Positions 2 to 18,036 of a DNA stretch of 20,435 nt are shown here, one piece after another. Made by a program: the position numbers and the translations under genes. Source of the DNA: a bacterium (lineage in GTDB: Bacteria > Arandabacterota > Arandabacteria > Arandabacterales > JALGWA01); assembly GCA_050125095.1 (NCBI GenBank), contig JASFEA010000045.1, positions 1 to 20,435 on the forward strand, given 5' to 3'. Under the pieces are notes generated by a model that had not been told where the DNA came from, ran no database searches, and saw only the letters and a list, made by a program, of their open reading frames with translations. How positions within the stretch are numbered: the first letter of the stretch is position 1; every line of letters starts with the position of its first letter.

Positions 2-136
2 AAGCGCTGTCATGAAGCCATTCACGAGATGGGGGCTCCGCGGGTCTCCACGGTGATTAAGGTGGGGACGCGGACCGACCGGCCCCAGACCATGGACGAC
101 AAGGTCAAGAGCGTCCAGTCCAAGCTCGACAAGTAG
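2..136 (+). CDS. 3' end of MTH1187/YkoF-like (DUF77) thiamine-binding family protein, truncated by window edge
   Basis: Frame from position 2 reads KRCHEAIHEMGAPRVSTVIKVGTRTDRPQTMDDKVKSVQSKLDK*, with TAG at 134-136. This resembles the typical MTH1187-family C-terminus (family recognised from memory). Confidence 0.8.
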   Translation, partial: KRCHEAIHEMGAPRVSTVIKVGTRTDRPQTMDDKVKSVQSKLDK

Positions 137-308
137 GGGTCAGGTCTGAAAATGCACAAAAATGAGGGGTCAGGTCTTGAAATGCACAACGCTTTCAACG
201 CGGGAGCGAAGGTGGTTCCGCGGAGGCTTCGCGTTGTAAACAAGCCGCCGTTGGAATGGCCGGCAACCGGCCATAGGCTGGCCGATGTGCATTTCAAGAC
301 CTGACCCC
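136..308. repeat. REP/MITE-like element copy 1: two tandem forward repeats (136-159, 166-189), a structured ~96-nt interior, and an inverted repeat (286-308)
   Basis: GGGGTCAGGTCTTGAAATGCACA at 166-188 is the exact reverse complement of TGTGCATTTCAAGACCTGACCCC at 286-308. A variant copy lies 30 bp upstream at 136. Confidence 0.9.
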
Positions 309-312
309 ATCT

Positions 313-870
313 CTATCCCCTGATGAGGTCCGCGGCCTTGCGCATGGCCCAGACGGCGGCGGCCATTACGAGCGCTGCCGTGGTCCCCAGTATTATGACC
401 GGCTGGGATACCCTCTGGACAAATGAGGTCGATTCGGCGGAGGCGCTCATGCTGCCCGGGATGAGCCCGGCGAAAGCTCCGCCCAACCGCGAGAGCGGCC
501 CCCCCAGGAAGTCTCCCAGTACCTCCATCCCGGGGCCCATGACTCCCGCAACCTCGCTTCTGAATATAAACAGAACGATCGCGGCGGCGGCGAACACCAG
601 GGCCGGCACAAGCGGTTCCAGCTTCTCGGCGCGCCTCCGGGCTCGGTCTACTTCCATGGCGCGCGCCATTACTCGCTGGGTGAAGTCCGGCGACAGATCC
701 GAGGGCACCTCTTGGCTGAGAGCGCCTATGATCTTCTTCTGGAGCCTGTACTCGGCCCTGCAGCGGCCGCAGACGGCGAGATGCTCTTCGAGCTCGGCGA
801 ACCTGTCCGGGGGGAGCGAGCCGTCGAGTCTCTGGCTGATCCACACAATGTAGTCAGAGCACCTCATCAC
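313..870 (-). CDS. Zinc-finger (zf-HC2/ZAS) anti-sigma factor with transmembrane segments
   Basis: N-terminus MRC...ISQRLDGSL...LEEHLAVCGRC carries the HxxxCxxC motif. Hydrophobic helices follow. The start overlaps the stop of the ECF sigma gene (867-870). Confidence 0.9.
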   Translation of the reverse strand: MMRCSDYIVWISQRLDGSLPPDRFAELEEHLAVCGRCRAEYRLQKKIIGALSQEVPSDLSPDFTQRVMARAMEVDRARRRAEKLEPLVPALVFAAAAIVLFIFRSEVAGVMGPGMEVLGDFLGGPLSRLGGAFAGLIPGSMSASAESTSFVQRVSQPVIILGTTAALVMAAAVWAMRKAADLIRG

Positions 871-1508
871 GACTCACCTCCGTCGTCCCCGGCCCCCGTG
901 GCGAGGCCTCCTGTCAGGCCGGCGATATCGCCCTCGGCCAGAAGGAGGTCTCTGAGGCGCAGCCGGGCCCGGTGAATATGCGTCTTCACCGTCCCGAGGG
1001 GAATTCCCATGATATCTGCTATCTCTTCGTACTTGGCCTGTTCGAGGTAGAAAAGCGTGAGCACGGTGCGGTATTGGGGCGGCAATCTCTCCATGAGTGT
1101 CCGTATGCTTTGAGAGAGGTCCCGCTTCTCGATCTCGTCTTCAAGACCTTGACGGGCGTCTGGGAGGAGGCAATGAAGTTTTTCATCGCCCTCTTCTTCA
1201 ATAGAGAGATGCTCGCCCCTTCTACCTTTCTTCCTTATTTCCGACAGGCAAAGATTGTGAGCGATCTTGTAAACCCAAGTCTTGAAAGTGCTTCCCCCGC
1301 GAAAGCCGGGTATAGCCCTGTAGACCTTTATAAAGACCTCCTGGGTGAGGTCCTCGTCGTCGGGCCCTCCGACCATGCGCCTTACGAGCCGGTGAATCCT
1401 GTCCTTATAGCGGTCCACCAGCACGGTGAAGGCGGCGTGGTTGTCGCCCTGGCAGAGCACCACCAGCTGCTCGTCGCTGAGTTCCCTTAAGGGCCTGCTC
1501 TGGCTCAC
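867..1508 (-). CDS. ECF-family RNA polymerase sigma-70 factor (SigW/RpoE-like)
   Basis: Region 2 DLTQEVFIKVYRAIPGFRGGSTFKTWVYKIAHN and region 4 YEEIADIMGIPLGTVKTHIHRAR. Likely GTG start at 1508 with GGAG 6 nt upstream; the ORF-track start at 1628 is probably too long. Confidence 0.95.
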   Translation of the reverse strand: MSQSRPLRELSDEQLVVLCQGDNHAAFTVLVDRYKDRIHRLVRRMVGGPDDEDLTQEVFIKVYRAIPGFRGGSTFKTWVYKIAHNLCLSEIRKKGRRGEHLSIEEEGDEKLHCLLPDARQGLEDEIEKRDLSQSIRTLMERLPPQYRTVLTLFYLEQAKYEEIADIMGIPLGTVKTHIHRARLRLRDLLLAEGDIAGLTGGLATGAGDDGGES

Positions 1509-1655
1509 TTGCTGCTCCGATGAAGAGAGTGTACGGGCTCCTCGCGGCCGGGGCCAGCCCAGCCTCCCAAGGGAGAGCCTATCGGCCCCCAGCGACATTT
1601 GCAAGACTGCGGTTGAAGAACAAGCCAATTCGATTTCCTCCGTTCTATTAGACTA

Positions 1656-1682
1656 GACGCCCCATGCCCGGGCAATGTTTCA
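1656..1682 (-). promoter_or_regulatory. ECF-type promoter TGAAAC-N17-CGTC upstream of the sigma/anti-sigma operon (likely autoregulatory)
   Basis: Minus strand reads TGAAAC attgcccgggcatgggg CGTC. The same motif occurs on the plus strand at 1707-1733. Confidence 0.75.
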
Positions 1683-1706
1683 GGGCGAGAAGAAAATTCA
1701 CGGGGC

Positions 1707-1733
1707 TGAAACAAAACCCCGGGCTATGGCGTC
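1707..1733 (+). promoter_or_regulatory. ECF-type promoter TGAAAC-N17-CGTC upstream of the DUF6249-like gene
   Basis: Plus strand reads TGAAAC aaaaccccgggctatgg CGTC, ~80 nt before ATG 1813. Confidence 0.75.
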
Positions 1734-1812
1734 GGTGCAGGGTGGAAGGAGAAAGGGCCCCACAGACGGGCTTTAGACCGGAATCGAATAGAAAGAGGAG
1801 GAGGGAAGAGAA

Positions 1813-2205
1813 ATGCAATCGAGCATCAATCCTTTCTTGATTCCCATCGTGTTTCTCATAGGCGCCTTTGCCGTCGGTATCGTAGCCATGATACTCAATG
1901 GCAGGGCCAAGGAGCGCCGTCACAGGGAACGCATGTACCTGGCCGAGAAGGGGATGGATATACCGCCGGAGCTGTACGAGGTGCAGAAGCAGGAAGTCAA
2001 GGAGAACGGCTACAAGGGCGGGAGGATATGGCTTATTATCCTGGGCCTGCTATGCATATTCATAGGCCTCTCGGTGATGATAATGCTGTTCGCGCGCGGA
2101 GAGCCGCACGATGCCACCGGCGGGATCGTGCCCATCGGCATAGGTATAGCATTCCTGATATCCGAGAGAATAGTCCGGAGAATAGCCGAGAAAGAAAAGG
2201 AGTAG
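1813..2205 (+). CDS. Small membrane protein, DUF6249-like
   Basis: N-terminal TM helix, then a RHRERMYLAEKG motif, then two C-terminal TM helices. Purine-rich RBS (GAGGAGGAGGGAAGAG). Divergent from an ECF sigma. Confidence 0.8.
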   Translation: MQSSINPFLIPIVFLIGAFAVGIVAMILNGRAKERRHRERMYLAEKGMDIPPELYEVQKQEVKENGYKGGRIWLIILGLLCIFIGLSVMIMLFARGEPHDATGGIVPIGIGIAFLISERIVRRIAEKEKE

Positions 2206-2243
2206 CAGGGACCTGTTTTTGGTCAAGGGGAGCAGGTCTTCAG

Positions 2244-2273
2244 GGGCCGCCGCCCAGCGGCGGCCCTTTTTTT
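2244..2273 (+). terminator. Rho-independent terminator of 1813-2205
   Basis: GGGCCGCCGC-CCA-GCGGCGGCCC, a 10-bp perfect stem followed by T7. Confidence 0.9.
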
Positions 2274-2275
2274 GT

Positions 2276-2447
2276 GGGGTCAGGTCTTGAAATGCACAAT
2301 ACTCTAAGCACGGATGCGAAGGCATTCCGCCGGGGCTTCGTGTTGTAAAGAAGTCAACGGTGGAAGGCCGGGCAACCGGCCTTAGGCTGCCCAATATGCA
2401 TTTCAAGACCTGACCCCTAGTTTTTGTGCATTTCAAGACCTGACCCC
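2276..2447. repeat. REP/MITE-like element copy 2: forward repeat (2276-2299), homologous interior, two tandem inverted repeats (2395-2417, 2424-2447)
   Basis: Same 23-24-bp repeat as copy 1. Interior 2300-2394 aligns with 190-285 at roughly 75% identity (manual count). Confidence 0.9.
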
Positions 2448-17984: not shown

Positions 17985-18036
17985 GGGGTCAGGTCTGGGG
18001 TCAGTCAGGTCTGGGGTCAGGTCTCGAAATGCACAA
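17985..18036 (+). repeat. Stuttered cluster of the GGGGTCAGGTCT repeat (partial units followed by one near-full unit)
   Basis: GGGGTCAGGTCT-GGGGTCA-GTCAGGTCT-GGGGTCAGGTCTCGAAATGCACAA. Confidence 0.85.

What the first reader, a model, noticed from the sequence alone, without database searches (positions are those of the whole stretch)
166..2417. Twice-present ~142-bp inverted-repeat-bounded element whose interior conserves a pseudoknotted fold with compensatory changes
Seen: copies at 166-308 and 2276-2417 share near-identical 23-bp terminal inverted repeats, while their interiors are only ~75% identical (manual count), yet base pairing is kept. (a) Long hairpin TTCCGCGG-A-GGCTT...AAGCC-G-CCGTTGGAA in copy 1 versus TTCCGCCG-G-GGCTTC...GAAGTC-AA-CGGTGGAA in copy 2 (CGG/CCG swapped to CCG/CGG). 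(b) Its loop region CGCGTT versus CGTGTT pairs with upstream AACGCG versus AGCACG (G-C to A-T), giving an H-type pseudoknot. (c) Hairpin ATGGCCGG-CAA-CCGGCCAT versus AAGGCCGG-GCAA-CCGGCCTT (T-A to A-T, GNRA loop in copy 2). (d) Invariant blocks GCGAAGG, TGTAAA and TAGGCTG. G-U pairs and the GCAA loop favour the plus strand, and both copies follow the 3' end of a plus-strand gene. Inference: selection acts on a single-stranded structure, so this may be an undescribed structured RNA (ribozyme, ligand or protein binder) or an ssDNA recognition structure carried by a REPIN/MITE-like non-autonomous element.
Basis: partly seen in the sequence, partly recalled or inferred. Interest (0 to 1): 0.85.

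Follow-up and report, generated by a model that had tools for sequence, protein, structure and literature searches.

The report
Hairpin repeat of a tyrosine-transposase family
The two 142-base elements are copies of a small non-coding hairpin repeat whose ends match the inverted repeats beside a RAYT-like tyrosine transposase gene, so they are an ordinary kind of bacterial repeat DNA and not a new pseudoknotted RNA.

Summary
The two copies, their 23-nt inverted ends and the 75% interior identity are real, but "twice-present" is wrong. The 23-mer occurs about 213 times at 123 loci in this 3.35-Mb genome. The full element occurs at 14 loci, in both orientations.

The 23-mer starts GGGGTCAG. That fits the GGGGWSAS motif published for inverted repeats flanking TIRYT genes (RAYT-like HUH tyrosine transposases; Di Nocera 2013). 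I found that single-copy gene bracketed by each genome's own variant of the unit in three relatives, and with a unit on one side in a fourth. Its C-terminal 187 residues, followed by a unit, lie at a contig start in this genome.

The interior holds one robust feature, an 18-bp stem-loop. A sister species has a second version with the same geometry and four stem pairs changed on both sides. The pseudoknot shows no covariation, and the 3' hairpin is not family-wide. Conserved ends with a looser, hairpin-keeping spacer are already described for REPINs.

Copy 1 is absent from the same site in two sister species. Copy 2's site holds a different interior in each.

The scan met this family before on another piece of this genome (e1-1403563).

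Verdict: new member of a known kind, modest interest.

The parts
136..158 (+). Extra 23-nt unit (GGGGTCAGGTCTGAAAATGCACA), head to tail with the left end of copy 1 at a 30-nt period. It begins directly after the stop codon of the upstream gene.
   Evidence: This 30-nt unit is missing from a second assembly of the same locus (contig C251), so it is an indel polymorphism.
166..188 (+). Left terminal unit of copy 1
   Evidence: 0 mismatches. It starts GGGGTCAG, which fits GGGGWSAS (PMC3733652).
189..285 (+). Interior of copy 1. The type-A stem-loop is at about 211-261, with loop GCGTTGTAAA. It looks degraded relative to the family consensus.
   Evidence: A related strain's DNA contig reads the consensus base at three positions (198 G, 241 G, 251 G). 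The interior alone has fold z -0.74.
286..308 (-). Right terminal unit of copy 1
   Evidence: 0 mismatches.
2276..2298 (+). Left terminal unit of copy 2. It lies 8 nt after a terminator-like hairpin (2242-2268).
2299..2394 (+). Interior of copy 2. The type-A stem-loop is at 2321-2369: a 12-bp outer stem, a 1x2 internal loop, the 6-bp inner stem GGCTTC/GAAGTC and the loop GTGTTGTAAA.
   Evidence: z -3.0.
2395..2417 (-). Right terminal unit of copy 2
   Evidence: 1 mismatch.
2425..2447 (-). Extra unit, head to tail with the right end of copy 2 at a 30-nt period. It mirrors 136-158.
   Evidence: (pair I1, 51-nt arms, 92% complementary).
18013..18035 (+). Solitary unit. It is preceded at 17986-18012 by partial GGGGTCAGGTCT repeats.

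Best explanation
The 142-bp element is a non-autonomous, REPIN-like hairpin repeat. Two inverted copies of a 23-nt unit enclose a spacer that carries a conserved stem-loop. The unit is the terminal inverted repeat of a 'TIRtron', a single-copy gene for a TIRYT (a RAYT-like HUH tyrosine transposase) flanked by the same unit.

Shown:
- the unit is a genome-wide intergenic repeat;
- it brackets the transposase gene;
- its sequence variant changes from species to species together with the units beside that gene;
- copy 1 is an insertion relative to two sister species;
- the interior is a separable module.

Inferred:
- the transposase spreads or maintains the units by acting on single-stranded DNA, as its IS200/IS605 and RAYT relatives are held to do (abstracts; passages);
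- the fold that selection keeps is a one-strand DNA hairpin formed during that process, and the sequence-conserved inner stem and loop are a protein recognition site.
For: (1) Abundance and placement.
- There are 214 units at 123 loci: 49 single, 49 tandem pairs, 25 other arrangements.
- 189 of 214 units lie outside my crude gene calls, which cover 89.5% of the genome.

(2) The unit fits the published motif. TIRs flanking TIRYT genes share GGGGWSAS and occur as singles, dimers and clusters (PMC3733652, passages).

(3) The transposase gene sits next to the unit.
- One Y1_Tnp gene of about 290 aa is found in each of G001 and G002.
- Units bracket that gene in G002, G008 and G011. In G001 one unit lies 67 nt from its start.
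- Scores: Pfam Y1_Tnp 35-42 bits (cut-off 23); NCBIfam REP-associated tyrosine transposase 84 bits (cut-off 80); a weak C-terminal HTH_23 match. That domain layout is the one described for TnpA-REP subclass 2.1, equated with TIRYT (PMC6006769, passage).

(4) This genome has it too. Contig C201 starts inside the gene. Its 187 C-terminal residues are 66% identical to G002's, and a unit lies 16 nt after the stop. This explains the miss.

(5) Species-specific variants. Counts are G000 213, G001 129 (those listed carry the GAGCTC variant) and G002 184, with a reversed-pattern control of 0. Each variant matches the units beside that genome's gene.

(6) Mobility and modularity.
- Copy 1's site is empty in G001 and G002.
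- At two orthologous sites G002 has unit-B interior-unit where G000 has the two units joined with nothing between them.

(7) Conservation profile. Mean pairwise identity is 97% in the units outside their 4-nt core, 90% in the inner stem plus loop, 77% in the outer stems and 60-66% in the flanks.

(8) I saw no direct repeat at the ends of the 11 G002 copies printed (read by eye).

(9) The central stem-loop is kept. 90.6% of cells pair, and four pairs differ on both sides between types A and B.
Against: - No experiment or read evidence ties the transposase to movement of these units.
- The own-genome gene is seen only as a C-terminal part cut by a contig end, and its left flank is unseen.
- The 23-mer is not itself a palindrome, unlike classical REPs. 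98 of 123 loci hold singles or tandem pairs that cannot form the doublet hairpin.
- I did not find the A or B stem-loop next to the transposase gene in G002 (reading).
- Within type A, covariation does not exceed shuffles. The support for the hairpin therefore rests largely on one A-versus-B split.
- Palindrome arms can also co-evolve by intramolecular repair, without selection on a fold.
- An RNA role is not excluded. The RNA data were unstranded contigs that did not cover the elements.
Confidence: 0.8

Rival explanations
1. It is a structured non-coding RNA (ribozyme, or ligand or protein binder) with an H-type pseudoknot, transcribed from the plus strand of the element.
For: - G:T outnumbers A:C in stem cells, 44 to 15, and the plus strand folds better in 27 of 37 modules.
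- The loop and inner stem are conserved in sequence, at 90%.
- The proposed pseudoknot can pair in 85.4% of cells.
Against: - The pseudoknot has no pair changed on both sides, and 490 of 500 shuffles do as well. Three of its 5 pairs are G:U in most copies.
- Type B has a different loop, and I saw no matching upstream complement (reading).
- The 3' hairpin pairs in only 59.8% of cells.
- In same-direction gene contexts the element is sense at 2 loci and antisense at 5.
- Copy 2 follows a terminator-like hairpin.
- No Rfam family reaches threshold.
- A one-strand bias is equally expected for single-stranded DNA.
Confidence: 0.06
2. It is a host-serving intergenic element, as proposed for REP sequences: a binding site or hairpin kept because it stabilises mRNA ends, insulates or modulates nearby promoters, or binds a nucleoid protein. 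It would have spread in the past and now be maintained by host selection.
For: - Units are 97% conserved while the surrounding genes are only 72-83% identical between species.
- Of 10 informative orthologous sites, 9 hold units in both species. Four of these were checked by alignment and the rest by coordinates.
- Unit loci are enriched between convergent genes: 30 of 107, against 201 of 1248 intergenic gaps.
- A sigma-70-like promoter reads away from the unit within 90 nt at 28 of 143 outer edges, against 0.74% of random 90-mers.
Against: - About half the units match the consensus exactly, and they are homogeneous within each species yet differ between species. That looks like turnover or copying, not independent site conservation.
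- Copy 1 is a lineage-specific insertion.
- The promoter control was not matched to intergenic DNA.
- This reading does not exclude the transposase link. It may be an added layer.
Confidence: 0.12
3. It is a classical MITE, an internally deleted DDE-transposase insertion sequence mobilised in trans through its terminal inverted repeats.
For: It has 23-nt terminal inverted repeats and is about 140 bp long.
Against: - I saw no target-site duplication (reading).
- Units also occur singly and in head-to-tail pairs.
- The only gene found bracketed by the units is a Y1 HUH transposase.
- I ran no systematic search for DDE transposases.
Confidence: 0.02

Closest known systems
TIR repeat families of TIRtrons (TIRYT genes), Di Nocera, De Gregorio and Rocco 2013, BMC Genomics 14:522 (PMC3733652; passages read)
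   Same: - Single-copy RAYT-like Y1 transposase flanked by inverted repeats.
- The repeats begin with GGGGWSAS (here GGGGTCAG).
- The same repeats are dispersed as singles, dimers and clusters.
- The protein has a C-terminal helix-turn-helix extension, as in TnpA-REP subclass 2.1 (PMC6006769).
   Different: - The host is an uncultured lineage not among the species named in the passages I read.
- The doublet here encloses a conserved 50-nt stem-loop that comes in two interchangeable versions.
- I could not see the paper's figures or supplements, which may show similar composites.
REPINs with RAYT transposases, Pseudomonas fluorescens SBW25 (Bertels and Rainey 2011, PMC3116915; passages read)
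   Same: - Two inverted conserved repeats around a less conserved spacer.
- The whole folds as a long ssDNA hairpin.
- Compensatory changes in the spacer are common.
- A single-copy Y1 transposase is flanked by the repeats.
- The repeats lie outside genes.
   Different: - Each REP is itself a short palindrome; the 23-mer here is not.
- Here singles and head-to-tail pairs outnumber inverted doublets (98 against 25 of 123 loci).
- In SBW25, 93% of the 430 doublets are inverted pairs.
Composite repeats made of degenerate GTAG-1 REP units joined to unrelated stem-loop sequences in P. putida and P. fluorescens (PMC3733652, passage); also E. coli BIMEs (recalled, not read)
   Same: Mosaic build: transposase-linked end units combined with a separate stem-loop or inner motif.
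   Different: The end units and inner module have different sequences. No homology was tested.
IS200/IS605 elements and their gene-less derivatives (recalled; abstract of PMC6006769 seen in the listing)
   Same: A Y1 HUH transposase, single-stranded DNA substrates, recognition of hairpins, and no target duplication.
   Different: Those elements have subterminal hairpins and no terminal inverted repeats.

Membership tests
TIRtron / TIRYT-associated TIR repeat family | A Y1 (HUH) tyrosine transposase homologous to RAYT/TnpA-REP | tested here: met
   - Pfam Y1_Tnp scores 35-42 bits (cut-off 23) in 4 relatives.
- NCBIfam REP_Tyr_transpos scores 84 bits (cut-off 80) for G002.
- HYH and YVVLNP motifs are visible in the translations.
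- The own genome holds only residues matching 96-281 of G002's protein, at 66% identity.
TIRtron / TIRYT-associated TIR repeat family | The gene is flanked by terminal inverted repeats and not by palindromic REPs | tested here: met
   - G002 has units 55 nt before the start and 18 nt after the stop.
- G008 and G011 have units on both sides.
- G001 has a unit on one side only.
- In the own genome the 3' side is seen and the 5' side lies off the contig.
TIRtron / TIRYT-associated TIR repeat family | The TIR carries the GGGGWSAS motif | tested here: met
   GGGGTCAG is found in all five genomes. The motif is taken from PMC3733652.
TIRtron / TIRYT-associated TIR repeat family | The same TIR is dispersed in the genome as singles, dimers or groups | tested here: met
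   214 units at 123 loci.
TIRtron / TIRYT-associated TIR repeat family | C-terminal helix-turn-helix extension (TnpA-REP subclass 2.1) | tested here: inconclusive
   HTH_23 scores 21-21.7 bits in 3 of the 4 proteins, below the 24.6 cut-off. The fourth (G008) has only a weaker HTH_38 match.
REPIN | Two inverted repeats plus a spacer form a hairpin that is copied as a unit | tested here: met
   - Whole-element fold z is -8.6 and -8.1.
- 14 loci share the same interior.
- Copy 1 is a lineage-specific insertion.
REPIN | Each end repeat is a REP, that is, itself a short imperfect palindrome | tested here: not met
   By reading, the 23-mer has no internal inverted repeat.
REPIN | Mobilised by the associated transposase | not testable with these tools
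   Only association was shown.
Structured RNA family (Rfam) | Match to a curated covariance model | tested here: not met
   No match at gathering score in the window. In E-value mode the best hits are noise, far below the cut-offs.
Classical MITE of a DDE transposon | Fixed-length target-site duplication | tested here: not met
   I saw none at the 11 G002 copies printed or at copy 1's filled-versus-empty site. This is an inspection by eye, not a statistic.

The most novel reading that the evidence does not exclude
The interior stem-loop is a swappable cassette, and unit-bounded sites are re-used. Sister species hold type A, type B, an unrelated interior, or nothing between the same two end units at orthologous sites. 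The end units themselves have been replaced genome-wide by each species' own variant. This would mean the TIRYT (or a repair process it triggers) repeatedly rewrites existing sites in place instead of only seeding new ones. That would be a templated, site-conservative mode of repeat turnover. The conserved inner stem and loop (GGCTTC-loop-GAAGCC) would be its recognition hairpin.
Probability: 0.25. Interest if true: 0.6.

Novelty: new member of a known kind. Interest (0 to 1): 0.27.

Why it matters
It removes a tempting false lead: the conserved fold is a property of a transposase-linked DNA repeat, not a new ribozyme or riboswitch.

It also extends the little-studied TIRYT/TIRtron class. My search found only 3 items using the term in the library searched, 2 of them listed and one of those held in two versions. 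The extension is to an uncultured lineage with 129-213 units per genome.

The case is unusually clean for comparison. Three sister species have different unit variants. Orthologous sites are filled in different ways. There is one filled-versus-empty site. Such material could help test how RAYT-like enzymes keep their repeat populations homogeneous.

Tried and rejected
- **Rfam.** A scan at gathering score found nothing in the window, and an E-value scan of 100-2500 gave only noise.
- **First Y1_Tnp search of the own genome.** It found nothing. This was later explained by the gene being cut at a contig start.
- **RNAalifold on 12 copies.** The consensus was dominated by the end pairing, with a covariation term of +0.45. 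It was not useful for the interior.
- **One long hairpin with an outer stem.** Only 58.8% of cells paired, so I dropped it as a family feature.
- **Public sequencing runs.** RNA contigs of two metatranscriptomes covered parts of the neighbouring genes but not the elements. One 85-nt contig touched only unit sequence. This is no evidence either way on transcription. The many short 'joints' in the DNA runs have sides under 30 nt and are cross-matches of units from other loci.
- **Genome-contig scan for the stem-loop.** Only 3 of 120 loci carried units nearby, so it says nothing about distribution.
- **Metagenome-contig scan.** Only 2 of 9 matches were real, both type B.
- **Interior derived from the transposase gene's own flanks.** I saw no convincing similarity by eye. 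I ran no alignment.
- **The ECF sigma/anti-sigma genes as a composite transposon.** They lie between the two mirrored elements. I rejected this because the block is syntenic in G002 (81% identity) without copy 1.
Full report
**1. What is at the coordinates.**
The window is contig C45 of a 3.35-Mb, 268-contig, 60% G+C assembly that is 91% complete.

- The elements lie at 166-308 and 2276-2417.
- Their ends are the 23-mer GGGGTCAGGTCTTGAAATGCACA and its reverse complement. Copy 1 has 0 mismatches and copy 2 has 1.
- The interiors are 74/98 = 75.5% identical.
- The window holds 7 units, not 4. The extra ones are at 136-158, 2425-2447 and 18013-18035. None is expected by chance.

**2. It is a genome-wide repeat.**
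- With up to 4 mismatches the 23-mer occurs 214 times. With a degenerate pattern and 1 mismatch it occurs 213 times, and the reversed-pattern control gives 0.
- The units fall into 123 loci. There are 49 singles and 49 head-to-tail pairs, mostly at a 30-nt period. There are also 10 inverted pairs, 10 '++-', 3 '+++' and 2 '++--'.
- 189 of 214 units lie outside my crude ORF-based gene calls, which cover 89.5% of the genome. Most of the other 25 touch gene edges.
- A covariance model built from 12 copies finds 15 full-length elements in this genome (E 3e-22 or better) plus partial ones, on both strands.
- One of the 15 (contig C251) is a second assembly of the window's own copy 1 locus. It differs by 2 substitutions and by the loss of exactly one 30-nt unit. 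That leaves 14 loci.

**3. Structure tests.**
- *The stem-loop.* RNAfold predicts the same central stem-loop in 12 of the 13 copies folded. It has a 12-bp outer stem, a 1x2 internal loop, the 6-bp inner stem GGCTTC/GAAGCC and a 10-nt loop.
- *Type B.* The sister genome G002 has this type A and also a type B. Type B has the same geometry and inner stem. Its outer stem is different (GGCGGTCTCCCA/TGGGAGACTGCC) and its loop has 11 nt.
- *Pairing across both types.* I aligned 37 modules: 23 of type A and 14 of type B. I left out C251, the truncated C135 copy and two contig-end fragments of G002. In these, 90.6% of 648 cells pair, against 33-50% for slid partners. Five pairs change on both sides, and four of them split A from B.
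- *Within type A.* Over 22 sequences, pairing is 90.8% but covariation does not exceed shuffles. Support for selection on the fold therefore rests on few events.
- *The pseudoknot.* 85.4% of cells can pair, but no pair changes on both sides, and 490 of 500 shuffles do as well.
- *Other proposed stems.* The 3' hairpin pairs in 59.8% of cells. An alternative outer stem pairs in 58.8%.
- *Strand bias.* G:T fills 44 stem cells and A:C fills 15. The G:T states are shared by many copies, while A:C states are mostly singletons. The plus strand folds better in 27 of 37 modules with RNA parameters and in 32 of 37 with DNA parameters. The copies are kin, so this is only a hint.
- *Conservation by region.* Mean pairwise identity among 12 copies is 97% for units outside their 4-nt variable core, 90% for the inner stem plus loop, 77% for the outer stems and 60-66% for the flanks.
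- *Rfam.* No family matches.

**4. The link to a transposase.**
- *First miss and the lead.* My first Y1_Tnp search of the genome found nothing. I read passages of that paper.
- *What the papers say.* RAYT-like genes flanked by inverted repeats are called TIRYTs. Many of their repeats share GGGGWSAS and occur as singles, dimers or clusters (PMC3733652). A later survey equates them with TnpA-REP subclass 2.1, which has a C-terminal HTH (PMC6006769). GGGGTCAG fits the motif.
- *The gene in relatives.* Among 41 relatives searched, G001 and G002 (same genus) each have one Y1_Tnp match. The roughly 290-aa gene is bracketed by that genome's own unit variant in G002, G008 and G011. In G001 it has a unit on one side.
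- *Protein family scores.* Pfam Y1_Tnp gives 35-42 bits. NCBIfam 'REP-associated tyrosine transposase' gives 84 bits against a cut-off of 80. The HTH match is weak.
- *The gene in this genome.* Contig C201 begins inside the gene. It encodes 187 C-terminal residues, 66% identical to G002's. A unit lies 16 nt after the stop.
- *Variants per species.* The units listed for G001 carry a GAGCTC core, while G000 and G002 units carry GGTCTT. Each matches the units beside its own gene.

**5. Mobility and turnover.**
- *Copy 1.* Its site is empty in both G001 and G002. There the two convergent genes are separated by only about 19-30 nt.
- *Copy 2.* G002 has a type-B element in the same orientation at this site, cut by a contig start. 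G001 has a 198-nt element with its own unit variant and an unrelated interior next to the same gene.
- *Eleven G002 elements compared with this genome*. One had a match on one side only and is uninformative.
  - One site is empty here (C87).
  - One has type A where G002 has B (C244).
  - Two have the two units joined with nothing between them (C105, C128).
  - One has a tandem pair (C115).
  - The other five hold units, judged from coordinates only.
- *Flanking genes.* They are 72-83% identical between the two species.
- *Target duplication.* I saw none by eye.
- *A related strain.* Its DNA contigs in two runs keep both elements at these sites. At three positions in copy 1 they read the consensus base where the window does not.

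**6. Context.**
- Orientation relative to neighbouring genes is mixed. In same-direction contexts the element is sense at 2 loci and antisense at 5.
- Unit loci are enriched between convergent genes: 30 of 107, against 201 of 1248 gaps.
- A strict sigma-70-like promoter reads away from the unit within 90 nt at 28 of 143 outer edges, against 0.74% of 5000 random 90-mers. The control was not matched to intergenic DNA.
- Copy 2 follows a terminator-like hairpin.

**7. Comparison with what is known.**
[quoted passage not shown] It is also written that compensatory changes are common (PMC3116915).
- The term TIRYT appears in 3 items of the library searched, 2 listed, one of them held in two versions.
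- I therefore file this as a new member of the TIRtron/REPIN kind.
- Two things are not explained. One is why the inner stem and loop are conserved in sequence. The other is how orthologous sites come to hold different interiors and species-specific units. These make up the novel case.

Noticed in passing
window 136-165, compared with G000 contig C251:3019-3330: A second assembly of the same locus is identical but for 2 substitutions and the loss of exactly one 30-nt period (one unit plus its 7-nt spacer). Unit number is therefore polymorphic within the sampled population.
   Followed up: partly
Outer edges of unit loci genome-wide, e.g. G000 C40:7853, C30:20344, C172:1704: A TTGAC-N16-18-TAnnnT promoter-like site reads away from the unit, mostly 0-30 nt from its GGGG end, at 28 of 143 edges. 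Random 90-mers give 0.74%. There was no intergenic-matched control.
   Followed up: partly
window 136-2447: The two elements and their extra units form a mirrored pair (51-nt arms, 92% complementary). They bracket an ECF sigma factor/anti-sigma pair and a small membrane protein gene. The block is syntenic in G002 without copy 1, so it does not look like a composite transposon.
   Followed up: partly
L071 (G002:C26:24135-24381) and L072 (G002:C12:16950-17260): Fused elements in which a type-A and a type-B stem-loop lie side by side between one pair of end units. They are in the same orientation in one locus and opposite in the other.
   Followed up: no
L078 (G000:C21:15337-15698) and L077 (G000:C21:5037-5283): Tandem duplication of 'unit plus the first two thirds of the A interior', ending in a variant unit (GGGCTCAGG). 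Two such blocks lie about 10 kb apart in inverted orientation. One is followed by a short ATGTGAAATGCACA tandem array.
   Followed up: no
window 17986-18035; G000 C13:23839: Two or three tandem copies of only the first 12 nt of the unit (GGGGTCAGGTCT) sit directly before a full unit. Isolated GGGGTCA fragments are common just outside units.
   Followed up: no
L043, L048 (G008) and L106 (G008:C15): G008's dispersed inverted pairs (GGGGTCAGGTCTTGA...AGCG type) differ from the units beside the G008:C15 transposase gene (GGGGTCAGAGCTAAAAA type). G008 has three Y1_Tnp matches, so several repeat families may coexist there.
   Followed up: no
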